Positions 17,224 to 59,200 of a stretch of DNA of 64,000 nt are shown here, piece by piece (within the stretch, counting starts at the first letter, position 1; the number at the start of each line of letters is the position of its first letter). The position numbers and the translations under genes are program-made. The notes under the pieces were generated by a model that saw only the letters and a program-made list of their open reading frames with translations, did not search any database and had not been told where the DNA came from. The stretch spans positions 17,295,648-17,359,647 of the forward strand of contig NC_092673.1 in assembly GCF_964355755.1 (NCBI RefSeq), written 5' to 3'. This DNA comes from Antedon mediterranea (lineage: Eukaryota > Animalia > Echinodermata).

Positions 17224-17231
17224 ATGGAAAG
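17224..17231 (+). CDS. First coding exon portion (exon 17145-17231): ATG GAA AG|
   Basis: Acceptor TTTTCAG ending 17144; gaaATGG context; donor GTACGT at 17232; phase 2 matches the next exon. Confidence 0.65.
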
Positions 17232-20200
17232 GTACGTTTGTTTTTTATTTCAAATCCAACAAAAATAACTGTAACGGTTAAAAACAAATTAAAATGTTTG
17301 AATAGTTAGCAATACTTTAAAACTTTCTTAAAAGATTATGAAATCATAAATATTACAATTAAAGGGCTCATTCTCATCAAATATAATGATTATTTCCATC
17401 AATCATCATTTTCATAATATAATGTAATAATTCATTATTTCTTACATTTTAACAGGAACAAATTAGAAGAAGCTTTGTTGTACACGTGTGATTTGCAAAC
17501 AATTAAACACATTTGTAAGACGCAACCAGATCTTGTGAAATCTATCAATGAGGTATTTAAAACAAGATGTACATTATTTTTATAATATTATCAAATAAGA
17601 AATTTAATTAAAGTTTAAAATTATAGAGATTGTAATTTTCTTTATTATTTATTATAACATTTTTTTATATAATGAATTACAATTATTTTGCAATATCACA
17701 CTAATGATGTTGGTAAGACCTGCATGCACTGATTAACCACATTAGGCTAAAAATAATAATATAAATACACACTGATGATGGGGATAACCTGCATGTACTG
17801 ATTAACCACATTAGGCTAAAAATAATAATATAAATACACACTGATGATGGAGGTATAACCTGCATGTACTGATTAACAACATTATGCTAAAAATAATAAT
17901 ATAAATACACACTGATGATAGGGGTATAACCTGCATGCACTGATTAACCACATTAGGCTAAAAATAATAATATAAATACACACTGATGATGGAGGTATAA
18001 CCTGCATGTACTGATTAACCACTTTAGGCTAAAAATAATAATATAAATACACACTGATGATGGGGGTATAACATGCATGTACTGATTAACAACATTAGGC
18101 TAAAAATAATAATATAAATACACACTGATGATGGGGGTATAACCTGCATGCACTGATTAACAACATTAGGCTAAAAATAATAATATAAATACACACTGAT
18201 GATGGGGGTATAACCTGCATGTACTGATTAACCACATTAGGCTAAAAATAATAATATAAATACACACTGATGATGGGGGTATAACCTGCATGCACTGATT
18301 AACCACATTAGGCTAAAAATAATAATATAAATACACACTGATAATGGGGGTATAACCTGCATGTACTGATTAACCACATTAGGCTAAAAATTATAATATA
18401 AATACACACTGATGGGTATGGCAAGCCTCAGCTGTCTGCAGTATTCGAAATATTATATTATTATATCATTTTCACGCTACATCACAAGAGAGGACTCAAT
18501 CAGATATAAAGCAAGCAGCAATTTTAGGACTGAGAGACTGACGTTTTGCTAAAATGCATACTCGACTATAGTTTATAGGTCCCAGCTGCTGGACCCAAAA
18601 AACGTCTGGGAAAAGTGTCTATGAGGGCTCACGGTTGAACGATTTTGGATTCTTGCCCTTTGATTGGTTGACTTCAAGGCAAATGGTTTAACCTAAATTT
18701 GTTATCGTATCTAGCTTAACTTAATTATGATATTAATTTCATTGGGTGTTAAAAATCAGTACCAAAAGTATGTACCAACTTTCTCTTCCATTGAGTATAA
18801 ATTCTAGAAGTTGCACTTAATTTACTGAAATTTCTCATTACTTATATGTAAATTCATTAAACTGCTTATTGGCCTCATATTGTTAACATCTAAACATTTG
18901 TTTGTACAATTTTATGAAATATGTATTTTATTAATGTTCAAATTTTGTGATTGATATTGTACAGTAAGTAGATTTTAATGATTACTTACATTAAGTAATA
19001 GGCTAACAATCACTAGATCTGATCCATGGTAATATATTATATTTTGTTTTCATTTTATCAATAATGATAATTAGGATTTTATCACATTATTTAGCAGTAA
19101 TTGTTGTTGTTTGTATTTACAAAAAAAACCAATTTTACATAATGTCTGTTGTCAGTATTTATAAACTTCATTATGATTCCTTTCCAGAATGGGAACACGC
19201 CATTACATTCATATCTGGGGAGTGTATATACACCTACCTTAGAAATAGTGACATGTCTCATTCAGCATGGGACACCAGTAGCATTGCAAAATAAGGTAAT
19301 GTACAGGGATTTGCTAGTGTAATAGGCTAATATTCTAAAGATATGCTGTGGTAGACCATTCTATTTTGTTATACTCATTTATCAATAATGATAATTAGGA
19401 TTTTATCACATTATTTAGCAGTAATTGTTGTTGTTTGTATTAACAAAAAAACCCAATTTCACATAATGTCTGTTGTCAGTATTTATAAAACTTCATTATG
19501 ATTCCTTTCCAGGATGGTGAGACTCCATTACATTCATATCTGGGGAGTCTAAGCCTATATCCACTTCCCTTAGAAATAGTGACGTGTCTCATTCAGCATG
19601 GGGCACCATTAGCATTGCAAAATAAGGTAATGTACAGGGATTTGCTAGTGTAATAGGCTAACATTCTATAGATCTACTGAAGTAAACCATTCAATGAGAG
19701 AAAAAAGTAAGCACATTAACAAAAATCAAATTTGATTAAAACAAACCAAATAAAAAAATAACTAAATAGTTATATATGATTTATGATAACTGATTTAAAG
19801 TGTACAGCTACCTATCATATAACATAAATCTTTAATTTTCTTAATGAACAATTTTTTTTATATATTCAGTTATTAATAAACAATTATTGACAATGGTCTA
19901 ATTAATTGTAAATATGAAATAAAATGCGACAACTACTAAACAACTAAAAATGTTTATGTTAAAAAAATTAATAGAATCTGATTTTAATAAAAAATAATTA
20001 TTAATTAATAACCTACTCCCTCCCTTACCTTACAAAAAATGCTTCTGTCAGTCTATCCAGCTAATTATAAACATGGCCTTAAACTGCATCTGGAGATCTT
20101 TTTCCAACCTAGGATATTTTTGTGCAAACATTTTGCCACAAAAGGAAGAGAAATGTAAATAATATTTAGCCTTTAGTTAGTGGTTTCCAAAATTTAAAAT

Positions 20201-23200
20201 GTTTGAGCAATGCAATTTAAAAAAGAAAGCTAATATGAAATTATTCTGTTCAAACTGAATGCTTTAAGAACAGTTCCGTCTCTTATCTTATGACTTTTCG
20301 GGGAAAAATGACATTATTAAAGTTGCTATATAAAATTTGATACTAGTAAGTGTCAATAGATGGTTCTTAAATACATGACCTTTGATAAATAACTGAAAAT
20401 TGCACTGTACACAAGGCAAATAAATACAGATATGATGGAATTTATGTAGTCAAATATAATTTTCATCCTGAGAATTACCTTAATTTTGTTTATTGCATGG
20501 CATTGTTCACCAAATTCCTGTCTTGGTACAATTGATGATGGGATGGTATAAGGCTTCATGATATGATATGATCTTCATCGAGGCAAATGATAAATTTGTT
20601 TTGATCGTCAATATAGTACACTGGTTTTCATTAGGTGTTAAAAATTAGTACCGAAAGTATGTACCAACTTTCTCTACCATTGGGTTAAAATTCTAGAAGT
20701 TGAACTTAATTTACAGAAATTTCCCATTACGTAAATTTATATATAAATTCATTAAACTGCTTTGTGGCCTCATATTTTTAATATCTAAACATTTGTTTGT
20801 ACAATTTTATGAAATATTTATTTTATAACGTTCAAATTTTGTGATTGATATTGTACAGTAAGTAGATTTTAATGATTACTTACATTAAGTAATAGGCTAA
20901 CAATCACTAGATCTGATCCATGGTAATATATTATATTTTGTTTTCATTTATCAATAATGATAATTAGGATTTTATCACATTATTTAGCAGTAATTGTTGT
21001 TGTTTATATTAACAAAAAACCCAATTTTACATAATGTCTGTTGTCAGTATTTATAAACTTCATTATGATTCCTTTCCAGGATGGTGAGACTCCATTACAT
21101 TCATATCTGAGGAATGTATATAGAATACATAGCTTAGAAATAGTGACTTGTCTCATTCAGCATGGGACACCAGTAGCATTGCAAAATAAGGTAATGTACA
21201 GGAATTTGCTAGTGTAATAATAAGCTAACATTATATAGATATGCTGAAGTAAACCATTCTATGAGAGAAAAAAGTAAGCACATTAACAAAAATCAAATTT
21301 GATTAAAACAAACCAAATAAAAAAATAACTAAATAGTTATATATGATTTATGATAACTGATTTAAAGTGTACAGTTACCTATCATATAACATAAATCTTT
21401 AATTTTCTTAATGAACAAAAAAATCTATTTTTTTTTATATATTCAGTTATTAAATAACAATTATTGTCAACGGTCTAATTAATTGTAAATATGACGTAAA
21501 TACTAAACAAATAAAAATATTTATGTTAAAAAAATTAATAGAATCTGATTTTAATAAAAAATAATTATTAATTAATAACCTACTCCCTCCCTTACCTTAC
21601 AAAAAATGCTTCAGTCAGTGTATCCAGCTAATTATAAACATGGCCTTAAACTACATCTGGAGATCTTTTTCCAACCTAGGATCTTTTTATGCAAATATTT
21701 TGCCACAAAAGGAAGAGAAATGTAAATAATGTTTAGCCTTTTAGTTAGTGGTTTCCAAAATTTAAAATGTTTGAGCAATGCAATTTAAAAAAGAAAGCTA
21801 ATATGAAATTATTCTTTTCAAACTGAATGCTTTAAGAACAGTTCCGTCTCTTATCTTGTGACTTGTTGGGGAAAAATGACATTATTAAAGTTGCTATATA
21901 AAATGTGATACTAGTAGTGCCAATAGATGCTCCTTAAATACATGACCTTTGGTAAATAACTGAAAATTGTTTAAGTACAAAGCAAATAAATACATATATG
22001 TTGGAATTTATGTTGTCAAATATAATTGTCATCCTGAGAATTAACTTAATTTTGTTCATTACATGTTATTGTTCACCAAATTCCTGTCTTGGTACATTTT
22101 ATTATGAGATGGTATCAGACTTCATGATATGATTTTCATTAAGGCAAATGGTTTAAACTAAACTTGTTATCGTTAATATCGAACTTAGCCTAATTATGAT
22201 ATTGATTTCATTGGGTGTTAAAAATCAGTACCGAAAGTATTTACCAACTTTCTCTACCATTGAGTATAAATTCTAGAAGTTGCACTTAATTTACTGAAAT
22301 TTCCCATTACCTAAATTTATATGTAAATTCATTAAACTGCTTATTGGTCTCATATTGTTAACATCTAAACATGTATTTGTACAATTTTATGAAATATGTA
22401 TTTTATTAATGTTCAAATTTTGTGATTGATATTGTACAGTAAGTCGATTTTAATGATTACTTACATTAAGTAATAGGCTAACAATCACTAGATCTGATCC
22501 ATGGTAATATATTATATTTTGTTTTCATTTTATCAATAATGATAATTAGGATTTTATCACATTATTTTGCAGTAATTGTTGTTGTTTGTATTTACAAAAA
22601 AAAAACAATTTCACATAATGTCTGTTGTCAGTATTTATAAACTTCATTATGATTCCTTTCCAGTCTGGTGACACTCTATTACATTCATATCTGGGGAGTG
22701 GATATAAACCTACCTTAGAAATAGTGACGTGTCTCATTCAGCATGGGGTACCATTAGCATTGGAAAATAAGGTAAATGTACAGGAATTTGCTAGTGTAAT
22801 AGGCTAACATTATATAGATATGCTGAAGTAAACCATTCAATGAGAGAAAAAAGTAAGCACATTAACAAAAATCAAATTTGATTAAAACAAACCAAATAAA
22901 AATAGTTATATATGATTTATGATAACTGATTTAAAGTGTACAGTTACCTATCATATAACATAAATCTTTAATAATAATAAATGAAAACTTATATAGCGCC
23001 GGTATCCTCCACCCATGTGGCGCTCATGGCGCTTTGTGCATTAACAACGTGCGAGAACATCAGCGAATAGCGACGTCTTTAGGTTGGTCTTGAAACTGTT
23101 TAGACTAGTTGAGCATTTAACTGTTGCTGGTAAGCTGTTCCATACACTTGCGGCCGCAACGAAAAAAGATCTCTGACCCCACTGATTTTTCGCTCTACGC

Positions 23201-26200
23201 TCTTGAAGAAGGTTTTGTGACAATGATCGTAGGCCTCTGCGGGATGATTCGTAACGATCCACAAGGTCAGATAAATAAGCAGGAGCACTGTCATTTAGGA
23301 TCTTGAATACAAACAACGCAAGTTTGTACTTAATACGTTGTTGAACAGGCAACCAATGCAAATCCATCAGGACAGGAGTTATGTGAGCGTTTGATTTTGT
23401 ATAAGTTACAATTCTAGCTGCCATATTTTGCAAGCGCTGCAAACGTTGTATTTGAGATTTTGGTATGCCAAACAACAAGGCATTACCAATGTCAATTTTA
23501 GAAGTGACAAATGAGTGTACAATCAATTCAGCTGTTTTCTTGTTAAGATTACCGCGAATACGACCAAGGTTCCTAATCGATATGCATGCTGCTTTGGATA
23601 CAGTTGTTATTTGTGCTTCCATAGTGAGATTACTATCCAGCATGATTCCCAGATTCCGGACCACCGATGAGGGAGCGATGTTAGAGTTTCCGATTCTGAA
23701 ATGTGTGATGTTGATTTTGGAGATGTTACCTTTAGACCCGACGATAATAAACTCTGTCTTTCCATCATTCAACTTTAGGTAATTTGTTGTCATCCAATTG
23801 CGAACATCTTCTATACAGGCTTCCATCTTACTGATTGCTGCAGCAACATCCCTTTCCACTGGATTTACTGACACATAAATCTGTGTATCATCTGCATAGA
23901 AATGGAAATGTAGACTGTGTTTGCGAATAATGTCACCAAGGGGAAGCGTATAAATGGAAAACTGGCCAGGACCAATTACTGACCCCTGTGGTACACCATA
24001 TTCCAGGCAAGCTTCATCTGAGAATGCATCATTGATACAGACTAGCTGACGTCTTCCTGTAAGATATGACTGGAACCAGTTAAGAGCAACACCATTTATG
24101 CCAATGCGATTTCTCAGACGGGTTATCAGTCTTCGGTGATCAACTGTATCAAACGCTGCTGACAAATCCAACAACACCAATAGCGTTATTTTCCCATCAT
24201 TCATTCCTTGTAACAAATCATTCTGTACCTTTAAAAGGGAACTCTCCGTGCTATGACATGCACGATATGCCGACTGGTAATTCTCATTTAAATTATGCTT
24301 TTGAAGATATGGAGTAATGCGTGATGTCACTACACGCTCCAGAGTCTTTCCAAGAAAAGAAAGATTCGACACCGGGCGGTAATTTTTCAGCGTGTTATGA
24401 TCCAAGTTTTGCTTTTTTATTAAAGGACGAACGTGAGCAATTTTCAGTTCATCTGGCACTATGCCGGTATTAAGAGAATGGTTAATGATTTCCGTTATTA
24501 TTGGAACGACTGCGTCTATACACTTCTTCAGTATAGAAGTAGGAACTGGATCTAACCTGCATGATTTTGTTGGTGATTTCATCAGAATGTTGCGGATCTC
24601 ATCTTGAGATGCTGGTGTAAATGTTGTGAGATGCTGATGAACAGCTGTCACAGGCTCATTAAATGACATGTCATCAATCTTGAAGTCGTCTCTGATGAAA
24701 AACTGACAGAACCTGTTCGCAAGATCTAAGTCAGAAAGACTATCTGAGAGAGGTGATACCTGGCGATGATGAAGGAGTTGGTTAACAATTTTAAAAAGTC
24801 CTTTCTGATCTGCTGCATGTTCTTCACACAAGCCAATGTAGTAGTTGGCCTTTGCCTTTCTTACCATGGAATTTACATTCCTCTTCTGTGCAATGTAAGC
24901 TTGACGATCTATTTCCAGATGAGAGATTCTCCATTTCTTTTCAAGCTTACGCTTTGTTCTTTTCTCAGCATAGATGTCACTGTTATACCAACTAGTGTTT
25001 GGTCGGACCTTTACTGTTCTCTTTTTCGGTGGTGCGTGTTTGTCAAGAAGTTCACTCAAAGTGGTGACATATAGTCGTACTTTACTTGATAAATCAAGAT
25101 TTGAGAGCGAAGTTCCGAGATCAGACTGTGTGATATCTTTACATAATGTCTCAAAATTTATAGCATTCCAATGACGAGTTTCGATGGATTTAGTGATTAC
25201 GGGTGGCTTCTTGATAAGGAGATTACATGTGATTGCATAGTGATCTGATATACCATCAATGACATTAAGGTTTGAGAAAACAGGAGGATCAGATGAACGA
25301 GTGATCAGCAAGTCTAATGTATGACCATGTCGGTGTGTAGGTGTAGACACATGCTGTTGAAGACTGCTTGCTGCAAGTAGATTCCGAAAATGAATTGCAT
25401 CTGCATCATTTGGCATATCCACATGGATGTTAAAGTCTCCAACGAATAGTATGGGAGCCGGCTTCAATACATAGTGATCAACCAAAGTTGAGAATTCTTC
25501 AGTGAAAACATTTAGACTGCAACCCGTTGATTTGCTTTGAGGACGATATACTGCTACGAGGAAAACTGAGGATGCATTGCTGACTATTTCCACATTTAGC
25601 AGTTCAAATGATTTTGGTAATAATCCCGTGTCATAACATTTAACCGCTATGCTTTCCTTGTAAAGAAGTGCAACTCCACCACCTCTTTTAGTACTAGCAC
25701 GGGGAGCATGTTTGAGAGAGTATCCGTTGGGTGTAATATTTCCTATAACTGATGTGTCTTCTGGTTTAAGCCACGTTTCCGAAAGGGCAACAACATCCAG
25801 ATTATGTTCGATAACGAAATCCACAAATTCTGTTGTTTTGTTCCGAACGGATCTTGTATTAATACAGCAAAATGTAATATTGTTTTTAGATAAGAGAGAG
25901 TTTGATGATAAGTCCGGAAATGATAGATTGTTTTTAGTGTGTTTGTTTGTTTGTTTGTCACGCCCAGCTCTTGTACCACGCCTGGTTTTTCTTTTTGGCC
26001 TCCTTGGTAATAGGTGGATACTACAGCTACTGGAGTTCAACTTAAAAGATTGTATAATTAAGCAAGATTCTTCAGGAAGTTCACAACTGTTATTGTTGTT
26101 GGTTACACAGCCCTGTAAACCATGAAGAAACTCAGAGCTATAGCTAATTAGCATGACAACAGCAGATCTTCAAGCATGAGGTGTACAAGGTCATTTACAT

Positions 26201-29200
26201 AACAATATGCACAGTCAGATTGAAAGTACAGGGCTAGCTTCCCACTGATGCTAGTAGACCATTGTTCTTGGGCAGTGATGAGTTTGAATTAAAACAATAA
26301 AGGCACAAGCAGGGCCTAGCTGAACTTCAGGAAACAACAAGAAAAACAACTGCGATTTACTCCAAGATACGATTATTTCCACATAAGAAATTTGTGAATA
26401 TATGGTGCTCAATTTGCTATTCCAGCATCCAGTAAAACTTATTTGATGAAAAAAACCATCTGCAAACAGATACGAAGTTGTTATGCACAGAGCAATATAG
26501 AGCCGCCACATGGGCGCTGCAACACTCCTCCTCTTATTTAAGTTTCTTAATGAACAAAAAAATCTATATTTTTTTATATATTCAGTTATTAAATAACAAT
26601 TATTGACAATGGTCTAATTAATTGTAAATATGAAATAAAATGCGACAACTACTAAAGAACTAAAAATGTTTATGTTAAAAAATTAATAGAATCTGATTTT
26701 AATAAAAAATGATTATTAATTAATAATGTGCTCCTTCCCTTATCTTACAAAAAAAATGCTTCTGTCAGTCTATCCAGCTAATTATGAACATGGCCTTAAA
26801 GAAATCCTTTTCCAACCTAGGATCTTTTTGTGCAAACATTTTGCCACAAAATGAAGAGAAATGTAAACAATGGTTTGTTAGTTTTCAAAATCTAAATTGT
26901 TTAAGTAATGCAATTTAAAAAAGAAAGGTAATATGAAATTATTCTTTTCAAACTGAATGCTTTTAAGAAAAGTTCCGTCTCTTATCTTATGACTTTTTTG
27001 GAAAAATGATTAAAATTAAAATATAATATACTAGTAAGTGCTCACAGATGCTTCTCGAATTCATGAACTTTGGTAAATAACGGAAAATTGCACTGTACAC
27101 AAAGCAATACAGATATGATGGAATTTATGTAGTCAAATATAATTGTCATCCTGAGAATTACCTTAATTTTGTTTATTGCATGGTATTGTTCACCAAATTC
27201 CTGTCTTGGTACATTTGATGATGGGATGGTATCAGACTTCATGATATGATATGATCTTCATCGAGGCAAATGATAAATTTGTTTTGATCGTCAATATAGT
27301 ACACTGGTTTTCATTTGGTGTTAAAAATTAGTACCGAAAGTATGTACCAACTTTCTCTACCATTGGGTTAAAATTCTAGAAGTTGAACTTAATTTACAGA
27401 AATTTCCCATTACGTAAATTTATATATAAATTCATTAAACTGCTTTGTGGCCTCATATTTTTAATATCTGAACATTTGTTTGTACAATTTTATGAAATAT
27501 TTATTTTATAACGTTCAAATTTTGTGATTGATATTGTACAGTAAGTAGATTTTAATGATTATTTACATTAAGTAATAGGCTAACAATCACTACCTGTAGA
27601 TCTGATCCATGGTAATTATATTTCGTTTTCATTTATTAATAATGATAATTAGGATTTTATCACATTATTTAGCAGTAATTGTTGTTGTTTATATTAACAA
27701 AAAACCCAATTTCACATAATGTCTGTTTTCAGTATTTATAAACATCATGATTATGATTCCTTTCCAGAATGATGACACTCTATTACATTCATATCTGAGT
27801 AGTGTATATCCACCTACCTTAGAAATAGTGACGTGTCTCATTCAGCATGGGACACAAGTAGCGTTGCAAAATAAGGTAAATGTACAGGGATTTGCTAGTG
27901 TAATAGGCTAACATTATATAGATATGCTGAAGTAAACCATTCAATGAGAGAAAAAAGTAACCACATTAACAAAAATCAAATTTGATTAAAACAAACCAAA
28001 TAAAAAAATAACTAAATAGTTATATATGATTTATGATAACTGATTTAAAGTGTACAAATCTTTAAGTTTCTTAATGAACAAAAAAATCTATTTTTGTTTA
28101 TATATTCAGTTATTAAATAACAATTATTGACAATGGTCTAATTAATTGTAAATATGAAATAAAATGGGACAACTACTAAACAACTAAAAATGTTTAGGTT
28201 AAAAAAATTAATAGAATCTGATTTTAATAAAAAAATAATTATTAATTAAAAACCTGCTCCCTCCCTTACCTTACAAAAAATGCTTCTGTCAGTCTATCCA
28301 GCTAATTATAAACATGGCATTAAACTACATCTGGAGATCCGTTTCCAACCTAGGATCTTTTTGTGCAAACATTTTGCCACAAAATGAAGAGAAATGTAAA
28401 CAATGTTTTGTTAGTTTTCAAAATCTAAATTGTGTGAGTAATGCAATTTAAAAAAGAAAGGTAATATGAAATTATTCTTTTCGAACTGAATGCTTTTAAG
28501 AAAAGTTCCGTCTCTTATCTTATGACTTTTTTTGAAAAATGAATTCTCGTTAAAATATAATATACTAGTAAGTGCTCACAGATGCTTTTTGAATACATAA
28601 ACTTTGGTAAATAACTGAAAATTATACTGTACACAAGGCAAATAAATACAGATATGATGGAGATCTGATCCATGGTAATATATTATATTTTGTTTTCATT
28701 TATCAATAATGATAATTAGGATTTTATCACATTATTTAGCAGTAATTGTTGTTGTTTGTATTAACAAAAAAACCCAATTTCACATATGTCTGTTGTCAGT
28801 TTATAAACTTCATGATTATGATTCCTTTTCAGGATGGTGACACCAGATCTGATCTATGTTAAGATATTCTATTTTGTTCTCATTTATCAATAGTTAACAA
28901 TTAGGATTATTTACCACATTATTTAGCAGCAAAAAACAATTTCACATAATGTTTGTTGTCATTATTTATAAACTCCATTATGATTCCTTTCCAGTATGGT
29001 GACACTCCATTACATCCATATCTGAGGAGTGGATATACTGCACCTACCTTAGAAATAGTGACGTGTCTCATTCAGCATGGGGCACCAGTAGCATTGAAAA
29101 ATAAGGTAAAGGGATTTGCTAGTGTAATAAGCTAACATTATATAGATCTGCTGAAGTAAACCATTTAATGAGAGAAAAAAGTAAGCACATTAACAAAAAT

Positions 29201-32200
29201 CAAATTTGATTAAAACAAACCAAATAAAAAAATAACTAAATAGTTATATATGATTTATGATAACTGATTTAAAGTCTACAGTTACCTATCATATAACATA
29301 AATCTTTAATTTTCTTAATGAACAAAAATATCTGTTTTTTTTATATATTCAGTTATTAATTAACAATTATTGACAATGGTCTAATTAATTGTAAATATGA
29401 AATAAAATGCGACAACTACTAAACAACTAAAAAATGTTTATGTTAAAAAAATTAATAAAATCTGATTTTAATAAAAAATGATTATTAATTAAAAACCTGC
29501 TCCCTCCCTTACCTTACAAAAAATCAGTCTATCCAGCTAATTATGAACATGGCCTTAAAGAAATCCTTTTCCAGCCTAGGATCTTTTTGTGCAAACATTT
29601 GCCACAAAATGAAGAGAAATGTACACAATGTTTTGTTAGTTTTCAAAATCTAAATTGTTTGAGTAATGCAATTTAAAAAAGAAAGGTAATATGAAATTAT
29701 TCTTTTCAAACTGAATGCTTTTAAGAAAAGTTCCGTCTTTTATCTTATGACTTGTTTGAAAAAATTAATTCTTGTTAAAATATAATATACTAGTAAGTGC
29801 TCACAGATGTTTCTCGAATGCAGGCCCGTATCCAGGGGGGTGCGTTGGGTGCAGACGCACCCCCCCCCCCCAAGTCCCAAAAGGTCCACTATTTCCTCGG
29901 TTGGTATTTTTTCTTGTCTTGTTTAACTAAAGACAATATCATTATATATATACAAAATTTACATTATCAATTTTATACAAACAAAAATATGTTAATATAA
30001 AATGAAAAAATACGGTAATTAAATTACGGAATCTGAAATGACTACAAACTTGATGTAAAACATGCGCAGTCGATCATGTGACGACAAGCAATAGCTTAGC
30101 GCTTCATGTACGCGGCGGTACGCGGTAAAGTGTTTGCTGGAAATAAATACAGACAACCGGCGGTAAAGATAGGTAGCTGCTGCCAAGCTCATATCTTATA
30201 ACACTACGCGCCCAGTAAATCATCCATGGACGCCATTCGGGCGGACAGGTTATTTAAATTGTGATTTAAATGTAAATGGTTTAAATTTTGCGGTCCGCCT
30301 CGAAGTATCTGTGGTTAACCATCTTGATGAATGATTCATGGAAAAGGGAAGAAATTATGTACACAAAGTAAAATAAAAGTTTCTTTGGGATCTGGACACT
30401 TTCCGATTAATTCTGTGTGTTTACATTGATATGTTTGGTTAGACAACTTCGTTCTTTAACCGAAACATCGTGGATATTGCCTTGACAACGAATTTATTCC
30501 GGTTCAAATTTGTCCGCCGGAATGGCGTCCATGGATTACAAAGGTCTCACCCAGTTACCTATCTTGTGCCGCGTAGCGGCGCTATAGTATCTTTGGTGTC
30601 TGGAAATACAGACACTATCGAATACGGCGCCTAAACATGGGAAGGAAGGCCAACTCAGACAGCGGCGTACGACGCTGTCTGAGTTGTCCTTTAAACATCA
30701 TGAAAGCGTTAAGTTCTGGTGTCCATCGTTCAGCTAGCCCAAGCCACAACAAAGAGTCTTAAATCAGTCTTTAGAACGTCAAATAACGCAAATTTTACCG
30801 GGGCCTTCGGCCCCTGGACCCTGCCCGGCGGCCCCCTGGCCCCCAGCCATTGTTACTCGCTTCGCTTGCACCGCCCCCCCCCCCACCATTATAAATGCTG
30901 CATACGGGCCTGGAATACATGAACTTTGGTAAATAACTGAAAATTGCATTGTACACAAGGCAAACATATACAGATATGATGGAATTTATGTATTCAAATA
31001 TAATTGTCATCCTGAGAATTACCTTAATTTTGTTTATTGCGTGGTATTGTTCACCAAATTCCTGTCTTGGTATATTTGATGATGGGATTGTATTAGGCTT
31101 CATGATATGATTTTCATTGAGGCAATATGGTTTAAACTAAATTTGTTATCGTTAATATCTAAATTAGCTTAATTATGACATTGGTTTCATTGGGTGTTAA
31201 AAATCAGTACTGAAAGTATGTACCAACTTTCTCTACCATTGAGTATAAATTCTAGAAGTTGCACTTAATTTACTGATATTTCCCATTACCTAAATTTATA
31301 TGTAAATTCATTTAACTGCTTATTGGCCTCATATTGTTAACATCTAAACATTTGTTTGTACAATTTTATAAAATATGTATTAAATTATTAATGTTCAAAT
31401 TTTGTGATTGATATTGTACAGTAAGTAGATTTTAATGATTACTTACATTAAGTAATAGGCTAACAATCACTAGATCTGATCCATGGTAATATATTATATT
31501 TTGTTTTCATTTATCAATAATGATAATTAGGATTTTATCACATTATTTAGCAGTAATTGTTGTTGTTTATATTAACAAAAAACCCAATTTTACATAATGT
31601 CTGTTGTCAGTATTTATAAACTTCATTATGATTCCTTTCCAGGATGGTGAGACTCCATTACATTCATATCTGAGGAATGTATATAGAATACATAGCTTAG
31701 AAATAGTGACTTGTCTCATTCAGCATGGGACACCAGTAGCATTGCAAAATAAGGTAATGTACAGGAATTTGCTAGTGTAATAATAAGCTAACATTATATA
31801 GATATGCTGAAGTAAACCATTCTATGAGAGAAAAAAGTAAGCACATTAACAAAAATCAAATTTGATTAAAACAAACCAAATAAAAAAATAACTAAATAGT
31901 TATATATGATTTATGATAACTGATTTAAAGTGTACAGTTACCTATCATATAACATAAATCTTTAATTTTCTTAATGAACAATCAATTTTTTTAGTATATT
32001 CAGTTATTAATTAACAATTATTGACAACGGTCTAATTAATTGTAAATATGAAATAAAATGCGACAACTACTAAACAACTAAAAATATTTATGTTAAAAAA
32101 ATTAATAGAATCTGATTTTAATAAAAAAAACGATTATTAATTAATAATGTGCTCCTTCCCTTATCTTACAAAAAAAATGCTTCTGTCAGTCTATCCAGCT

Positions 32201-35200
32201 AATTATGAAAATGGCCTTAAAGAAATCCTTTTCCAACCTAGGATCTTTTTGTGCAAACATTTTGCCACAAAAGGAAGAGAAATGTAAACAATGTTTTGTT
32301 AGTTTTCAAAATCTAAATTGTTTGAGTAATGCAATTTAAAAAAGAAAGGTAATATGAAATTATTCTTTTCAAACTGAATGCTTTTAAGAAAAGTTCCGTC
32401 TCTTATCTTATGGCGTTGCCATTTACCTACACCAGAGATTTAAATATATTCTTCGCCCTGATTTATCATTTATCATTACTAATGGTTCGGAATCTCTTTT
32501 CATTGAAATCGATGCACAACCCAAAAACATAATCCTTGGAGTAGTATATCGTTTGCCTGAATTATCCATTAACACATTTAATAAAGATATCTCTAATTTA
32601 ATTGACACCATTAATAATGAGAAAAAAACAGCATATATTTCAGGAGACTTTAATATTAACTTGTTAAATTCCAAAAAACATAAAGGTACTTCTGATTTTG
32701 TTAATACTTTATTTCAATCAAATTATTATCCTCTTATTACTAGGCCAACTAGAATTACGCGTAATTCTGCAACTTTAATCGACAATATTTTTTGTAATAA
32801 TCTATATGATAACATTTCTTCCGGAATTCTATATTCGGACATCTCGGATCACTTTCCTGTTTTCTTGTTAGTACATAAATCAGAACCTCTCCAACACCTG
32901 AAACCTAAATCAAAATATATATACATAAAAAAAGTCAATGATATTTCAATTTCTGCCTTAAGTAATGATTTGTCAAATGTTGACTGGACTAGTATTTATA
33001 ACTCCAATGAACCCAATGAGGCATACGCTTTATTCAACGACATATTTAGTACATTATATAATAACAACATTAAAACCACTCGTTCCAGACGCAATATTCG
33101 GAAAGAAAAAAAACCTTGGATAACTAAATGCTTAATTAAATCTATCGACAAAAAACACAAATTATATAAAACATTTCTTATATCTAAAAAGCAAAAGGAC
33201 AAAGATAAATATGTTAAATATCGAAATGTACTTACCAGAATCCTTCGTACTGCCCAAAAGAATTACTTCAGTGACAAATTTGAATTCCATAAAAATAACA
33301 TCCAAAAAACCTGGCAAACAATAAATGGAGTCCTTGGCAAGAAATCTCGTAAACCGTTTCCTTCTCACTTTATTAACAATGACATTGAATTAAATAATCC
33401 TCAACAAATTGCAACTGAATTCAATAATTATTTTACTAGTATAGGGCCAAATTTAGTTAATAAAATACATGTGTCGGATAATGATAATTATACTTCTACC
33501 CTACCTCGTCCATGTGTGCACTCTCTCTTTCTTAGTCCTGTAACCGAACATGAAGTTGTCAGTATAATACTTTCCCTCAAAGATAATAAATCTCCTGGGT
33601 TTGATGGGTTTTCCAATAAAATTATTAAACGTGTTTCTAATTTTATATGCAAACCCTTAACTCACATTTTTAATACTTCTTTTCAAACCGGTATTTTTCC
33701 TGATTCTTTTAAAATAGCTAAAGTCATCCCTATCTACAAGAAAGAAGATCCTCATCATTTCAATAACTACAGACCAATCTCCCTACTTCCTTGTTTCTCA
33801 AAATTAATTGAAAAAATAATGCATAATCGAATTTCTTCCTTTTTAACTAAACATAACATTTTATTTAAAGGCCAATATGGTTTCAGGAAAAAGTATTCAA
33901 CAGATCTTGCTTTATTAGATATTTTTGACAAAATTACAATTGCCCTGAGTAAAAATGAGTTTTCTGTTGGCATTTTCCTTGATTTATCTAAGGCCTTCGA
34001 TACTATTAACCACGATATTTTAATTCATAAACTTTCAAATTACGGTATCAGAGGCCTTCCTTTAAAACTAATTAAAAGCTACCTTTCCAATCGTGTTCAG
34101 TTTACTTCCTTAAATAATTTTAACTCTTCCTATTCCCGTTTAACCTGTGGTGTTCCCCAAGGATCGATTCTTGGACCACTCTTATTCCTGATTTTTGTTA
34201 ACGATATACCAAACAGCTCTAAATTACTAAATTTTATCTTATTTGCTGACGACACAAATATTTTTTTCTCTCATCCTAAATTAAATACCTTGTTTAAAAT
34301 TGTCAATGATGAGTTACTTAAAGTTTCAAATTGGCTCAAACACAATAAATTAACTCTTAATACATTCAAAACGAACTATATAATATTTTCTAAACGTAAA
34401 ATTTCAAATTCTTTAAATGAACAAATATACATTGATAATAAAATGATCAAACGAGTTAATGAAACCCAATTTTTAGGAGTAACCATAGATGCCTCTCTGA
34501 CTTGGAAACTACATATAAATAAAATCAGTAATCTAGTTTCTAGAAATGTTGGAATATTGAACAAATTAAAACATATCTTCCCTCAAAAAACCTTATTAAC
34601 CCTTTATAATACTTTAGTTTTGCCTTACCTTTCTTATGCCAATTTATGTTGGGCAATTACTCTAGATAAATTTAATACGTTATGCCCCTGGACAAGTCTA
34701 GAGAAAACTCAAATTGACCGCCTTTTTAAACTACAAAAACGTGCACTTCGGATTTGCGCGGGAGAATCATTTAGAGCCCATACAAAATTACTTTTTAAAA
34801 GATTTAACGTTTTAAACATTTATGATTTAAATAAATTACAAGTTGCCTCATTTATGTACCGTTTATCTAACAATTTACTGCCTTCACATTTTAATGCTTT
34901 ATTTACAAGAATTGACGAACGCCATTCCTATAAAACCCGATCCTCTGTTAACAATTATATCCTTGATAATTTAAATGTTAAGGCTCGACGATTTTCTATG
35001 TATTATTTTGGTCCCAAACTTTGGACTTCACTCTCAAATGAACTTAAACAGAAATCTTCCTTTTCTAGTTTTAAATCTAATTTCAAACACAAAATGGTGT
35101 CAGAATATGCTACATAAATTTTCGCCGATCTTTTATCCTTATTTATTTGGTGGTGATACATGGCATTAAATCCTTCACCCTGGTATTCAATAATCTCCGC

Positions 35201-38200
35201 TACATTGTATCGTTATACTTGTTATTATACCATATTTAATTATATTTCATATTGTACTCTAATTGTTATCATTATCCCTTTTATCATATATTATATAATT
35301 GCCTGGTTTATCTTAACTTCTATAATTTAAATTTTTTTTATTTCTTTATTTTATGTACTTTCACTATTATATATTTATATTTTAGTCTACTCTGTAGCAA
35401 TGTTAGTATACTTAGGCATACGGGAGTCACGACTTAAAGTTCAGTGAACTTACTGTGACTTCCATCCACCCACATTTAATATATGTTATGTTATGTAAAT
35501 GTAAATGATATATATATATATATATATATAAGTGAGTGGAAAAAATAAATAAACGAAACGAAACGAAACTTTTTTGGAAAAATGATTTCTCGCTAAAATA
35601 TAATATACTAGTAAGTGCTCACAGATGCTTCTTGAATACAAGAACTTTGGTAAATAACTGAAAATTGCACTGTACACAAAGCAATACAGATATGATGGAA
35701 TTTATGTAGTCAAATATAATTGTCATCCTGAGAATTACCTTAATTTTGTTTATTGCATGGTATTGTTCACCAAATTCCTGTCTTGGTACATTTGATGATG
35801 GGATGGTATCAGGCTTCATGATATGATATGATTTTCATTAAGGCAAATGGTTTAAACTAAATTTGTTATCGTTAATATCTAAATTAGCTTAATTATGATA
35901 TTGGTTTCATTGGGTGTTAAAAATCAGTACTGAAAGTATGTACCAACTTTCTCTACCATTGAGTATAAATTCTAGAAGTTGCACTTAATTTACTGAAATT
36001 TCCCATTACCTAAATTTATATGTAAATTCATTATACTGCTTATTGGCCTCATATTGTTAACATCTAAACATTTGTTTGTACAATTTTATGAAATATGTAT
36101 TTTATTAATGTTTACATTTTGTGATTGATATTGTACAGTAAGTAGATTTTAATGATTACTTACATTAAGTAATAGGTTAACAATTACTAGATCTGATCCA
36201 TGGTAATATATTATATTTGTTCTCATTTATCAATAGTTAACAATTAGGATTATTTACCACATTATTTACAGCAGCAAAAAACAAACAATTCACATAATGT
36301 CTGTTGTCAGTATTTATAAACTTCATTATGATTCCTTTTCAGTCTGGTGACACTCCATTACATTCATATCTGAGGAGTGGATACGCTACCTTATCAATAG
36401 TGACGTGTCTCATTCAGCATGGGTCACAAGTAGCATTGCAAAAAAAGGTAAATGTACAGGGATTTGCTAGTGTAATAGGCTAACATTCTTTAGATCTGCT
36501 GAAGTAAACAATTCAATGAGAGAAAAAAGTAAGCACATTAACAAAAATCAAATTTGATGTAAACAAACCAAATAAAAAAATAACTAAATAGTTTATATGA
36601 TTTATGATAACAAACAAATTTAAAGTATACAGTTACCTATCACATAACATACATCTTTACTTTTTATATGTTCAGGTGAATCAGTATAATTTTGTTTACA
36701 TATTTTTGACCGTAAAACAAATATAAATTGCTCCTATGTAGCTGTAAAGATAGCAACGATTGACAATGGTCTAATTAATTGTAAATATGAAATAAAATGG
36801 AACAACTACATTGACTAATAATAAAACAACAAATAAAAAAATGTATGTTAAAAAAATTAATAGAATCTAATTTTAATAAAAATAATTATTAATGAATAAC
36901 CTGCTCCCTCCCTTAATTTACCTTACAAAAAAATGCTTCTGTACATCTACCCAGCTAATTATGAATATGGCCTTAATTAAAGAGATCCTTTTCCAACCTA
37001 GGATCTTTTTTTTCAATTATTCTTTTCAAACAGTCCCGTATCTTTTGTGGAAAAATGATTCTATAAAGTTGCTAGTTAAAATTGAATATACTAGTATTAA
37101 GTGCCCACAAATGGTTCTCGAATATATAAACTTTGAGAAATAACTAAAAATTGTCCAAGTCACACTGTACACAAAGCAAATGAATACAGATATGTTGGAA
37201 TTTATGTAGTCAAATATAATTGTCATCCTGAGAATTACCTTAATTTTGTTTATTACATGGTATTGTTCACCAAATTCCTGTCTTGGTACATTTGATGATG
37301 GGATGGTATCAGGCTTCATGATATGATATGGTTCTCAAAACTACTAATAACTAAACCTATTTTTTTAATAGGATGGAAATACACCTGTCTCTCTTTTAGA
37401 AAGTAACAGGCTGATAAGTGACCAAAGAAAAACTGAAATTTTAAACTTCTTAGAAGGTAAGTGAAGTTTTAATTATTCAAATTCTAGGATCAACTAGTTT
37501 CATTGCAAACGATAAAAATTTTACTTCTCGTCCCAAGTGAAGAAGAATGTCCAGATAAAAAAAATTAACATTTATGATATATCATTCACAGGTTTATTAT
37601 AGATTATATAATTCAGTGGGATAGTAGTATACATGGAAGTTGTGATATGTTGCAAGATGTAAAAACCTAATTTTTTATGATTTGAAAATTGCAAATAAAT
37701 TCGAAAAAATATTTTGCCATTAATACGATAAAAATAACACAAAAACGCAAACTTTAAAATTCCTTAGAAATAAAAATATTAAATAAATCATTTTTCAAAT
37801 CAAATCAATCTCTTTATTCAATACATCAAAACAGTACACATAACAAAAATAAAGAGATTTTAATGATGATGATGATTTTAAGATGAAAGGGACCTTCAAT
37901 AAACCCCAAGGGGCTTTTGATAGGAGGCTTTACTTTAAACTAGTTACAATAACCTGACGGGGGACATGCATTGTTAATGAATATTTGAACTTTATTAATT
38001 GCACATAAATGTAAATGTAGATTTTTTTTTCTTTTTAATGTAATCTATTTTATATATAATGCTATGTACAATTGGTATTCGCATTCAAGGCAAACAATTT
38101 ACGATAGGAGGAGATAAATATTGAATATAAAAATCTAATTTTCTTGTTAAATCCCTGTTTTTGCTTCCACAATGGATGAATTTCCTTCACACATTTTAAA

Positions 38201-56200: not shown

Positions 56201-59200
56201 CATTGATATGATACAAAATTACCATGGTTGGGGTTGTTGGGGGTGAGCTAAGAAAATTTTGAAAATTAGAGCTGTTAGGTCCCCGGAAACTCTATGGTTG
56301 GGTCTGAGCTAAGACAATTTTGAAAACTAGAGCTGCAGCTCTACAAAAATTACACTCATACATTGAAAATGGTGGAGGGAAAATTTGAAAATGTGAAAAA
56401 TTCATATTATTAAATTATCTGTTTTAAAAACAAATTCACTGAAATAAATGTAAATGTTTGTGTATATTAAATGATAAATAAGTTATTGCCATCGGTCACA
56501 ATTTAAATTCCCATGTTATTAAAATAATACTAATGACAATGGCAGTAAAATAAGAAATAATTGATTATACTTACTTGGATAAAACATGCAAAATTGTATT
56601 ATTTCACAAGATTCCAAAAAAAACCCTACTTTTTTTCACAGATGTGCAAGATGGTTCAGTGACCTCTGCATTACCACAGTCTGATATCCAAGGCAGTCAA
56701 CAAGGTATGATCCACTGGTTAATTCCAGAGGTTAATCATCTAAGTGGTTACATTTTGAAATAAAACTTAAAAGACATATAATATAACTGTAGCACATTTT
56801 GAGTTATTCAAACTGTATACATTTTAGATGAAAATGTATAGTTATGTTACTCTCCAAAATGAACATAAAATGTATAGTTATGTTACTCTCCAAAATGAAC
56901 ATAAAATGATGAACATAAACAGTCATTTATTTGTGTGTCACTCGTACAAAATAAAAAGCTTTGTCATTAATTTGTAATGTATAACTAACTGTCTTTTTTG
57001 TATTTTTGTTGAACAGAATTAACAAAGCTATTAGCATCAGATTCACCAGTTACTGTTAATGAGAAATTAAAAACACAAATGAAGAAAGTGATGATTGAGG
57101 AACAGGAAAGAAAACTTGAAGCAGAGAGCGGTGAGTTAAGGATCATAAATTAATTTACTTTTTATTTTATTTCGTCACCACTTAACAGTGACACAAGTCA
57201 AGTCAATTACAAAGTTCAACAATAGAAAATGATGAACATATTTAAACATAATTATATAAACAAAATCCAAAGCAATCTTAAGCTGGCCTTCAATATACTG
57301 TTTAACGTATACTAACAATAAATGTCTTTTCTGGATGTTTTTATTGACCAGAAGTGACAAAGCAATTTCCATCGGATTCATCAGATACTCTTAGTGATGA
57401 ATTTCAAACACAAGTAGTGGAACAGGAAACTAAACCTGAACCAGAGAGTGGTGAGTCTCATAAAATATTAGTTGTATTATTATGGTTAAACTAACTTTAA
57501 ATGTGATGTTATAGAATGGATTTTAGCTACATTTTTTTTTTATTTCAACATTTATAAAAAAAAGAATGTCTTTAAACAGAATTAGAAAAAAATGCTAAAT
57601 TCATACATTTAAACGGTTGATAAGGTAAATGACTTATTTAACTAATCTTTAAAACAACATGTCTTTTATTATTTAGTCAAGAATAAAAGCTGATACACTG
57701 AACAATATCTGCATAAATACTGTCATGATATTTATATATAAGTTGCTGTGACACTTACAGGCCACCGTACTTTGATCACACAAACAAAACATATTCATTA
57801 TGGTCGGCAATGTATTATCAGGGAAGAGTTAAATTACAATTTAACTCAATTGTAATTTAACTCTTCCCTGGTATTATCAACAAACTTAAAAATAAGAGAT
57901 AGTCCTCTATCCATTGTAAATAGAACAGTTTATATTTCATCAAAGAACGTATTGTTAATCAATCATATTTTGATATGCTTGCTCTATAAAATTCAACATA
58001 TCTGCATAAATACTGTCATATTTATATATAAGTTGCTGTGACACTTACAGGCCACCGTACTTTGATCACACAAACAAAACATATTCATTTAATGGTCAGC
58101 AATGTATTATCAACAAACTTAAAAATACGAGATAGTTCTCTATCCATTGTAAATAGAACATCAAAGAACATATTGTTATCTTAATCTATAAATTCAACAA
58201 CAGATTAATTATGATTGGTCAAAGCTCTCTGTGAAGCTGTCAACATCTTGAAATTAGCATGCAACATACAAATACATTGCAAAATAATAACAAATTGATA
58301 TTAATAATCAAATTAGGGTGTGGTACATTGTGTAGGTCTATGGTACAGGGCTCAGGTGGCAGGTTTTTACTTTACTTGCCAACTAATGTTTATTTTTTTC
58401 TTGTATCAATTTTCTAGTTTTTTATTGTAATATGGTCCCCTAATGCTATTTTTTTGTAATATATTTATAGACCATAAATCAATTTTTAAAAATGAGGTTC
58501 TGCACATTGAATTTATGGTTTTCAGGCCCGTAGCCAGGGGGGTTTTTTGGGTTTGGGCGAACCCCCCCTTTTGCGCGAACCCCCCTTTTACCAGCGAACC
58601 CCCCCTTGAAAAACAAAGGCCCCACTTCCAAAATCGTGCAATTAATTATCAATTATATCAGATTTTTTAGTCATTTTACTTCTATTGACTATGTTTAAAT
58701 CGATCGAATATACAGATTGTCCGATGTCAAAGTCGCTGCTGAGCGTGAGATCGAGAGAGATGATGATTATAAATATGACAGAAAAATGGACTGACCAATC
58801 GCGTGCTTCGGCCGGGCTTTTCGGAACGCACAAGATCACGTTCAGTTCAGTTCAATCTTTTTGGGGATTTTTATTTTTTTCCTGGAAATATTTTTCATTA
58901 AACCAAAGAATTTCACTGTGTAAACTTGAATAAAAATGGTGCTGAGTTAAATTGGTACGTGTACGTAGGCCTACCGTATATTTCGGTGTATAAGACGCAC
59001 TTTTGACACGCAAATTTGACCTCTAAATGTTACCCTAATTAATTTAATTACCTACTAATATTTAAATTAATTAAAAATAGTGTACTACTCTGCAATGTAG
59101 GCCTAGCTAGTTACTCACTCCTGTCTAACCACAGTGTGATAACAAGTTTATTGAATTTTTAGTTAAGGTAAATTGTCATCCTCAACTGTATTAATTAATA

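What the first reader, a model, noticed from the sequence alone, without database searches (positions are those of the whole stretch)
19188..36447. Natural DARPin-like library: ANK exons vary mainly at the binding face
Seen: the framework (LH.YL, L.IVTCLIQHG, AL..K) and the introns are nearly invariant, while the hairpin residues (NGN/DGE/SGD/NDD/YGD) and the segment after helix 1 (GSVYTPT, GSLSLYPLP, RNVYRIHS, GSGYKPT, SSVYPPT, RSGYTAPT, RSGYAT) differ strongly. All indels are in frame (105/108/111/114 nt) and I see only a handful of synonymous differences. Established: the beta-turn and helix-1 positions are the ankyrin binding surface randomised in DARPins. Inference: diversifying selection on ligand specificity, as in variable immune or allorecognition receptors.
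Basis: partly seen in the sequence, partly recalled or inferred. Interest (0 to 1): 0.9.

Follow-up and report, generated by a model that had tools for sequence, protein, structure and literature searches.

The report
Feather-star ankyrin exons with hypervariable loop
A gene whose closest relatives are feather-star (crinoid) proteins carries eight near-identical one-exon ankyrin repeats whose protein-changing differences pile up at the groove positions and in an extra, length-variable loop, a pattern that likely marks an intracellular immune sensor diversified by selection and exon copying, as already described for repeat-based receptors of brown algae and fungi.

Summary
The array is real: eight phase-0 ankyrin exons (105-114 nt; seven distinct, two identical) between cap exons, in an open 25-exon model that runs on to a DED-like exon. 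All close relatives are Antedon mediterranea proteins, most of the long ones ANK-Roc-COR(-DED) Roco proteins; no Roc-COR lies in the window. Introns are not invariant (3-13% diverged), which gives a neutral yardstick. Against it, six pre-defined groove positions show dN/dS about 5 (p 0.0005-0.0024, three trees). The segment between helix 1 and helix 2 has 11 replacement changes to 1 silent and all four indels, each in frame. That segment is an insertion absent from DARPins, so the analogy is partial. A 589-bp identical tract centred on two non-adjacent exons indicates gene conversion. One probable RNA run shows ANK-to-ANK splice joints, arguing against strict Dscam-like choice. Whole-exon dN/dS is not significantly above 1, only 6 silent changes calibrate the tests, and no ligand or immune role is shown. 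Best reading: a cytoplasmic, likely immune, repeat-shuffling receptor, the animal ankyrin counterpart of brown-algal ROCO and fungal high-conservation NLR repeats; not found described for crinoids.

The parts
17224..17231 (+). First coding exon piece (Met-Glu-Arg start); no signal peptide follows
   Evidence: ATG at 17224 and GT donor read; relatives P0018, P0166, P0249 start with the same three residues. One search used coordinates one base off; phase is unaffected.
17456..17552 (+). N-terminal capping repeat exon
   Evidence: tblastn 77-85% identity to the N-caps of P0018, P0166, P0249
19188..19295 (+). ANK exon A1, 108 nt, phase 0-0
   Evidence: Pfam Ank E 7e-4
19513..19626 (+). ANK exon A2, 114 nt (loop +6 nt, looks like a two-codon micro-duplication)
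21080..21190 (+). ANK exon A3, 111 nt; identical to A7
20830..21418 (+). 589-bp tract identical to 31393-31981, centred on the exon, with flanks 4-11% diverged: inferred gene-conversion tract
22664..22771 (+). ANK exon A4, 108 nt
   Evidence: weak, E 0.027
27768..27875 (+). ANK exon A5, 108 nt
   Evidence: no Pfam hit on its own; aligns with the others
28833..28844 (+). Truncated ANK exon remnant: intact acceptor and four codons, then intron sequence and a stop after nine codons
28995..29105 (+). ANK exon A6, 111 nt
   Evidence: E 6.9e-5, above the Pfam cut-off
31643..31753 (+). ANK exon A7, 111 nt; identical to A3
36343..36447 (+). ANK exon A8, 105 nt; first 27 residues identical to the last repeat of A. 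mediterranea XP_071948802.1 (P0019), an ANK-Roc protein
37372..37456 (+). C-terminal capping repeat exon
   Evidence: 82% to P0019
44685..54526 (+). Nine linker exons (Ser/Gly-rich repeat exon 45130-45599, acidic exons), predicted from splice sites and frame
   Evidence: exons at 47346 and 54482 match P0002
55164..55709 (+). Exon encoding a 181-residue all-helical region, likely a tandem death-effector-domain-like module
   Evidence: Pfam DED E 0.0013, below cut-off; 11 of 13 family members hit DED, best 1.1e-8; 91% to P0002; fold test inconclusive
56642..61241 (+). Second copy of the linker exons; the gene likely continues past the window end

Best explanation
This is the N-terminal ankyrin array of a gene from a crinoid-type ankyrin/Roco/DED family, built one repeat per symmetric exon, whose groove residues and inserted loop have diversified faster than neutral DNA, and which likely works as an intracellular innate-immune sensor. 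Shown: eight in-frame repeat exons between cap exons; excess replacement changes at groove positions and in the loop; in-frame-only indels; a non-adjacent identical exon tract; relatives that join the same repeat to Roc-COR and DED-like domains. Inferred: unequal crossing-over adds or removes 1.5-kb exon-intron units without changing frame; gene conversion copies exon-centred tracts between units and keeps the scaffold uniform; selection favours new residues and loop lengths, so each allele or paralogue presents a different continuous binding surface along the solenoid. Predicted and untested: binding of a pathogen-derived or perturbed-self ligand in the cytosol drives clustering (through a Roc-COR switch in family members that have one) and DED-type recruitment of a caspase or adaptor, giving cell death or inflammatory signalling.
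For: Gene model of 25 exons without a stop, downstream exons matching an annotated A. mediterranea protein at 79-95%. 13 of 13 hits of the DED-like exon are A. mediterranea proteins, 9 annotated with Roc and/or COR. The closest ANK relatives are A. mediterranea too: P0015 (8 ANK-Roc-COR-DED), P0211, P0249, P0312, P0019, P0031 carry Roc or Roc-COR. Fixed-site codon model, six groove codons: omega 5.5 (star tree, p 0.0005), 4.7 (exon tree, p 0.0024), 5.3 (intron tree, p 0.0008); published ANK-N5C position set omega 6.0, p 0.0002. 10 of 21 replacements fall on those 6 of 31 codons, exact p 0.007. Loop: 11 replacements, 1 silent, p 0.0004 against the long-intron rate; 4 of 4 indels in frame against 16 of 58 in introns, p 0.006. 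Across 33 distinct family repeats, positions 14, 13, 10 and 3 have the highest entropy and 32 different position-13-to-loop strings occur. 100 of 231 informative site pairs are incompatible and exon and intron trees differ; 589-bp identical tract. In two samples 22 of the 40 listed variant rows and 11 of the 12 listed gap rows fall in or at the edge of the loop of A6. Model of relative P0016: pLDDT 93.9, ankyrin fold, variable segment is coil between helix 1 and helix 2.
Against: Whole-exon dN/dS is 1.3-2.1 and not significantly above 1 (p 0.10-0.43). Only 5-6 silent changes calibrate the codon model, and recombination violates its tree assumption. The non-groove class has omega 1.1-1.4, and positions 28-30, which are not groove positions, also vary (p 0.035 against introns). 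The loop was aligned by hand and picked after seeing the data. No Roc or COR exon is in the window, unlike most long relatives where Roc follows the C-cap directly. The DED call is below Pfam's cut-off. No expression of this very gene, no ligand, no immune induction and no population sample were seen.
Confidence: 0.62

Rival explanations
1. Relaxed constraint plus a local mutation hotspot: a young tandem array in which the buried core is conserved, the surface drifts, and the loop is a slippage or conversion hotspot, with no selection for diversity and no special receptor role.
For: Whole-exon omega not significantly above 1; non-groove omega about 1; outer-linker positions vary as well; few silent sites.
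Against: Groove and loop replacement rates are 0.65 and 1.0 per site against 0.20-0.28 in introns and 0.23 at silent sites; the one silent change in the loop gives 0.25 per site, so the substitution rate there is not raised; the same positions are the most variable in distant paralogues.
Confidence: 0.17
2. Cassette splicing is the main source of diversity: each transcript includes one or a subset of the symmetric exons (Dscam-like or brown-algal-like), so one gene yields many binding domains.
For: All eight exons are phase 0-0 with near-identical splice flanks; brown algal ROCO repeat exons are alternatively spliced (PMC11378527, section 11); annotated isoforms P0031 and P0165 of a relative differ by one repeat.
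Against: Run X1 holds contigs joining an ANK exon end to an ANK exon start (joint 29105 to 28996, depth 22, and matching loose ends on both sides of the exon), not listed for the three DNA runs: strict one-of-eight choice is unlikely for the family. Variable skipping is not excluded and could add to the best explanation.
Confidence: 0.1
3. The gene is selected for diversity for a non-immune reason (conspecific allorecognition, gamete or symbiont recognition, or evasion of a pathogen inhibitor that binds the repeats).
For: The selection tests say nothing about the ligand; fungal NLRs with such repeats act in allorecognition (PMC4986451, PMC13449251 abstracts).
Against: No signal peptide, so a cell-surface allorecognition role is unlikely for the repeats; death-fold and Roco partners fit conflict or immune systems (PMC8195603 passage on AP-GTPase proteins).
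Confidence: 0.08
4. Assembly artefact or decaying pseudogene.
For: Two exons identical; two LINEs and a MITE-like element inside the array; a broken exon remnant; no Roc-COR in the window.
Against: No stop or frameshift in 25 exons; flanks of the identical tract are 4-11% diverged; non-adjacent identical or near-identical repeats recur in P0016 and P0015 from another assembly; helix 2 is depleted of replacements (2 seen, 5-7 expected; p 0.02-0.11).
Confidence: 0.03

Closest known systems
Brown algal ROCO genes with exon-shuffled LRRs (Zambounis et al. 2012, PMC3341825; Teng et al. 2024, PMC11378527)
   Same: N-terminal repeat array, one repeat per exon of constant phase, recombination among repeat exons, inactivated repeat remnants in introns, diversifying selection on the concave face, Roco family context, proposed immune receptors.
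   Different: Ankyrin rather than LRR; exon length varies in frame (105-114 nt) whereas algal exons are a fixed 72 nt; phase 0 rather than 2; no repeat exon on the opposite strand here; DED-like effector; an animal; Roc-COR not seen in this window.
Fungal NLRs with high-internal-conservation ANK repeats (Dyrka et al. 2014, PMC4986451; Ament-Velasquez and Saupe 2026, PMC13449251)
   Same: Highly similar ankyrin repeats, concerted evolution and repeat exchange, positive selection on inner helices and the hairpin, association with transposons.
   Different: There the repeats are C-terminal to a NACHT/NB-ARC ATPase; here N-terminal, intron-separated, linked to Roc-COR in relatives, and the strongest variation is a length-variable insertion between the helices. 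Amino-acid identity among the window's repeats (mean column identity 79%) is below their 85% threshold.
DARPins and ANK-N5C designed libraries (PMC4308713, PMC9611651, PMC8229355)
   Same: N-cap, internal repeats, C-cap; variation at hairpin and helix-1 positions on a fixed scaffold; fold match TM 0.78.
   Different: Repeats are 35-38 residues (up to 40 in a relative) because of an insertion between helix 1 and helix 2; position 2 is fixed by the splice donor; Gly, Pro and Cys occur; natural, germ-line encoded.
Metazoan Roco proteins DAPK1, LRRK1/2, MFHAS1 (names from PMC11378527; ankyrin repeats of DAPK1 and LRRK recalled)
   Same: Repeat domain, Roc-COR and a death-fold or effector module in relatives of this gene.
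   Different: Single-copy, conserved genes with kinase domains in most; the crinoid family is expanded on at least four contigs, kinase-free in the members seen, and modular (ANK-Roc-COR-DED, ANK-Roc-COR-Roc-COR-TM, DED-Roc).

Membership tests
Ankyrin repeat | TPLH motif, helix-turn-helix, hairpin; Pfam Ank match; ankyrin fold | tested here: met
   6 of 7 distinct exons hit Pfam Ank at E <= 0.027, one above cut-off; relative P0016 folds as ankyrin, TM 0.78 to DARPins
Roco family | Roc GTPase followed by COR in the same protein | tested here: inconclusive
   No Roc/COR match in the 64-kb window; the gene appears to run past the window end and no genome is held. Closest relatives have Roc-COR; P0013 has DED-like region before Roc.
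Death effector domain proteins | Six-helix death fold, Pfam DED above cut-off | tested here: inconclusive
   E 0.0013, 19.4 bits against cut-off 35.9; 11 of 13 members hit DED; model pLDDT 52, fold searches without a significant match
Exon-shuffled repeat receptors (brown algal ROCO type) | One repeat per exon, constant phase | tested here: met
Exon-shuffled repeat receptors (brown algal ROCO type) | Recombination or conversion among repeat exons; remnants in introns | tested here: met
   589-bp tract, incompatible sites, remnant at 28833
Exon-shuffled repeat receptors (brown algal ROCO type) | Diversifying selection on the concave face | tested here: met
   small sample, own implementation of a fixed-site model, not PAML
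Exon-shuffled repeat receptors (brown algal ROCO type) | Intact repeat exons on the non-coding strand | tested here: not met
   Motif scan of both strands found none on the minus strand
Fungal-type HIC NLR | NACHT or NB-ARC ATPase with C-terminal repeats | tested here: not met
   Repeats are N-terminal; relatives carry Roc-COR, no NACHT/NB-ARC hit
Dscam-like mutually exclusive exon cluster | Only one exon of the cluster per transcript | tested here: inconclusive
   ANK-to-ANK joints in run X1 come from family members, not provably this gene; they argue against the feature
Innate immune receptor | Binds a non-self ligand and signals; expressed in immune cells | not testable with these tools
   No run on record as RNA; no functional data

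The most novel reading that the evidence does not exclude
Feather stars have an ankyrin-based variable receptor system: dozens of ANK-Roco-DED genes draw on a shared pool of repeat exons, each with a CDR3-like loop of variable length grafted at the helix 1-helix 2 turn, and exon-targeted gene conversion (possibly also in somatic cells or by variable splicing) assembles individual- or cell-specific binding surfaces, a natural loop-extended DARPin repertoire in a deuterostome.
Probability: 0.1. Interest if true: 0.9.

Novelty: new variant of a known kind. Interest (0 to 1): 0.58.

Why it matters
It would add a third, independent origin (after brown algae and fungi) of the recipe 'near-identical repeats plus shuffling plus selection on the groove' and place it in an animal with ankyrin repeats on a Roco/DED chassis, suggesting an immune role for invertebrate Roco expansions. 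The length-variable loop between the two helices is a diversification site that designed ankyrin libraries, as described in the papers read here, do not use, so the family is a natural test of whether that site extends the binding surface. The units are short, so alleles can be amplified and counted directly.

Tried and rejected
No whole genome held, so copy number and the gene's 3' end were not examined. No RNA holder on record among 5 listed runs; laying four runs on 17440-37439 at 90% likeness listed no exon-exon joint among the 15 of 57 joints shown; this is not evidence on expression. Structure of the DED-like exon was low confidence (pLDDT 52); Foldseek gave no match at E <= 0.001 (caspase-8/cFLIP DED assemblies only at E 3-4), the wide search none above Z 5.4, sequence search of solved structures only chance hits. 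The protein atlas did not answer. The first repeat extraction missed P0016, P0018, P0019, P0023, P0031 and P0312 through a too strict pattern and was replaced (41 repeats, none dropped). Whole-exon dN/dS tests were not significant. Depth was not used for copy number or expression. Literature searches for a description of this family in crinoids or echinoderms found none; the library lacks most subscription papers and supplements were not read, so absence is weak. Searches (plant ankyrin resistance genes; LoopDARPin) were seen as listings only, apart from passages of PMC9611651. Earlier findings of this scan: none for this genome or sequence.
Full report
Observation. A motif scan of both strands found eight complete exons on the plus strand, each between an AG acceptor and a GT donor, 105 to 114 nt long, all multiples of three and free of stops, plus one acceptor at 28833 followed by four codons and then intron sequence. 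Six of the seven distinct exons match Pfam Ank on their own, weakly, as expected for single repeats. Exons A3 and A7 are identical.

Gene context. The array sits between an N-cap exon (17456-17552) and a C-cap exon (37372-37456). A 25-exon model from the start codon at 17224 to 61241 has 928 codons and no stop (the first exon was entered one base off there, with no effect on phase). After the repeats come a Ser/Gly-rich exon, acidic linker exons, a 546-nt exon at 55164-55709 and a second copy of the linker exons, so the gene likely continues past the window. The start has no hydrophobic leader, so the repeats are predicted to be cytosolic. All 13 hits of the 546-nt exon among 724 candidates are Antedon mediterranea proteins (55-91% identity), 9 of them annotated with Roc and/or COR; P0002 matches five of the window's downstream exons at 79-95%, which supports the model. 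A profile of the repeats returned 442 proteins at E <= 0.001; of the top nine, five are A. mediterranea, and further family members came. The long ones are ANK-Roc-COR-DED (P0015, P0211), ANK-Roc-COR-Roc-COR with a hydrophobic tail (P0249), ANK-Roc-COR (P0312) or ANK-Roc fragments (P0019, P0031). Antedon is a crinoid. No Roc or COR sequence is in the window. The 546-nt exon is DED-like by Pfam only below cut-off (11 of 13 members), and the structural test failed for lack of a good model.

Neutral yardstick. With three transposon insertions set aside, the units are about 1.45 kb. Intron pairs differ by 3.3-13.4% (36 pairs; 4.1-9.6% among the six long ones). Minimum changes per site among seven copies are 0.284 in long introns, 0.204 in near flanks and 0.233 at silent exon sites. 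So the introns are not invariant, and silent exon change runs at intron speed.

Selection. Aligned to solved DARPins, the repeat has a three-residue insertion between helix 1 and helix 2; a model of the close relative P0016 (pLDDT 93.9) shows the variable segment as coil between those helices and matches DARPins at TM 0.78. Two position sets were fixed from outside the data: the classical DARPin set 2, 3, 5, 13, 14, 33 (recalled; PMC9611651 passages confirm six positions but give them in a figure) and the ANK-N5C set 2, 3, 5, 10, 13, 33 (PMC4308713, passage; same numbering assumed). In the 31 gap-free codons of the 7 distinct exons (A7 dropped as a duplicate) there are 21 replacements and 5 silent changes; 10 replacements fall in either six-codon set (0.65-0.68 per site; p 0.011-0.014 against long introns, 0.001-0.002 against flanks; exact enrichment p 0.007). 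A fixed-site codon model of my own gave omega 5.5, 4.7 and 5.3 for the classical set on a star tree, the exon tree and the upstream-intron tree (p 0.0005, 0.0024, 0.0008), and 1.1-1.4 for the other 25 codons. The five alignable loop codons add 11 replacements and 1 silent change (p 0.0004 against long introns), and all four exon indels lie in the loop and keep frame, against 16 of 58 intron gaps. Against this: the whole exon is not significantly above 1 (omega 1.26-2.1; p 0.43, 0.10, 0.17), positions 28-30 off the groove vary too (p 0.035), the loop alignment is manual and post hoc, and six silent changes are a thin calibration; PMC3341825 (section 25) lists the same limits for exon-wise tests. 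Across 33 distinct family repeats the highest entropies among positions 3-26 are at 14 (2.97 bits), 13 (2.64), 10 (2.22) and 3 (1.83), loop length runs from 3 to 9 residues against 2 in the standard repeat, and 32 different loop strings occur.

Shuffling. A3 and A7 share 589 identical bases centred on the exon (250 upstream, 228 downstream) while their flanks differ by 4-11 per 100 bases: a recent conversion tract is the simplest reading. 100 of 231 pairs of informative sites are incompatible with one tree, and exon and upstream-intron trees differ. Non-adjacent identical or near-identical repeats also occur in P0016 and P0015, and the first 27 residues of A8 are identical to the last repeat of the ANK-Roc protein P0019.

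Reads. Five runs hold parts of the region, none on record as RNA. Laid on exon A6 at 80% likeness, two samples show many more variants than the window has: 22 of the 40 listed substitution rows (63 in all) lie at 29025-29041, 11 of 12 listed gap rows (38 in all) at 29026-29043, and the first base of position 10 has three alternative letters. Rows near indels can be alignment artefacts. Run X1, guessed to be RNA, has a joint from exon end to exon start (depth 22) and loose ends equal to a preceding and a following ANK exon; the three DNA runs, all one sample, list no such joint, though 69 loose-end rows were not shown. These are family members, not provably this gene, and an intron-less paralogue is not excluded. 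They favour tandem splicing over strict mutual exclusion.

Mechanism. Shown: modular exons, excess replacement on the groove side, frame-preserving loop indels, exon exchange. Inferred: crossing-over and conversion renew the array while selection keeps the core and favours new surface. Predicted: cytosolic ligand sensing coupled to DED-type signalling, with a Roc-COR switch in members that have it. That the loop adjoins the groove follows from its position directly after positions 13-14 (general ankyrin geometry, recalled); it was not measured.

Comparison. Brown algal ROCO genes show one LRR per exon, shuffling, intronic remnants and selection on the concave face (PMC3341825: abstract, sections 15 and 25; PMC11378527: abstract, section 11 and part 1 of section 13). 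Fungal NLRs show conserved ANK repeats with selection on inner helices and hairpin (PMC4986451: passages and section 17; PMC13449251: abstract and section 12, which notes such repeats in other lineages including animals). PMC8195603 (passages) describes Roc-COR proteins with fast-evolving N-terminal repeats and variable effectors as conflict systems; PMC9334734 (passages) reports ROCO domains in Aplysia TIR proteins; PMC8229355 (passages) places DARPin binding on the concave surface. Searches found no description of a crinoid ANK-Roco family; supplements were not read. The principle is therefore known; the ankyrin/Roco/DED combination in an animal, with a length-variable inter-helix loop, appears to be a new variant.

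Verdict. Observation partly confirmed, interpretation partly supported. Diversifying selection on the groove side: about 0.8. Intracellular immune-type sensor: 0.62. Interest 0.58.

Noticed in passing
window 22973-26536 (-), ORF 23044-26169: LINE-type retrotransposon with an uninterrupted 1042-codon endonuclease/reverse-transcriptase frame, inserted in the A4-A5 intron.
   Followed up: partly
window 32413-35567 (+), ORF 32388-35114: A second, different LINE with a 909-codon reverse-transcriptase frame and a short-repeat tail, in the A7-A8 intron.
   Followed up: partly
window 1132-4068 (-): Third LINE with a 979-codon open frame upstream of the gene; a reverse-transcriptase zinc-finger fragment lies at 43501-44076.
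   Followed up: partly
window 29823-30909 and about 58524-60402: Non-coding elements with terminal inverted repeats (MITE-like), one in the A6-A7 intron, a related one in a downstream intron.
   Followed up: no
window 46993-53055 versus 56994-61264: The linker exons with their introns are duplicated at about 85-90% identity on either side of the DED-like exon, suggesting the effector module is also a tandem unit.
   Followed up: partly
window 45130-45599: Exon made of 23.6 copies of an 18-bp unit encoding a Ser/Gly/Ala/Val spacer; relatives have unrelated repeat spacers (Pro/Glu/Lys-rich in P0015, P0211; Thr/Pro-rich in P0312), so spacer length and sequence turn over fast.
   Followed up: no
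window 8200-12122, 15699-17068, 17692-18414, 49328-52964, 53202-54426: Large minisatellite arrays (units of 89, 31, 71, 66 and 88 bp) around and inside the gene.
   Followed up: no
window 17456-17552: The N-cap exon also varies among relatives just after its first helix (LYTC here; LRN, WWS, HRN in P0016, P0018, P0166), the position equivalent to the repeat loop.
   Followed up: no
proteins P0002-P0014, P0016, P0018, P0019, P0023, P0166, P0249: At least 19 family proteins or fragments map to one 36.2-Mb A. mediterranea contig, others to contigs of 22.3, 28.6 and 39.0 Mb: a clustered, expanded Roco family with shuffled module order.
   Followed up: partly
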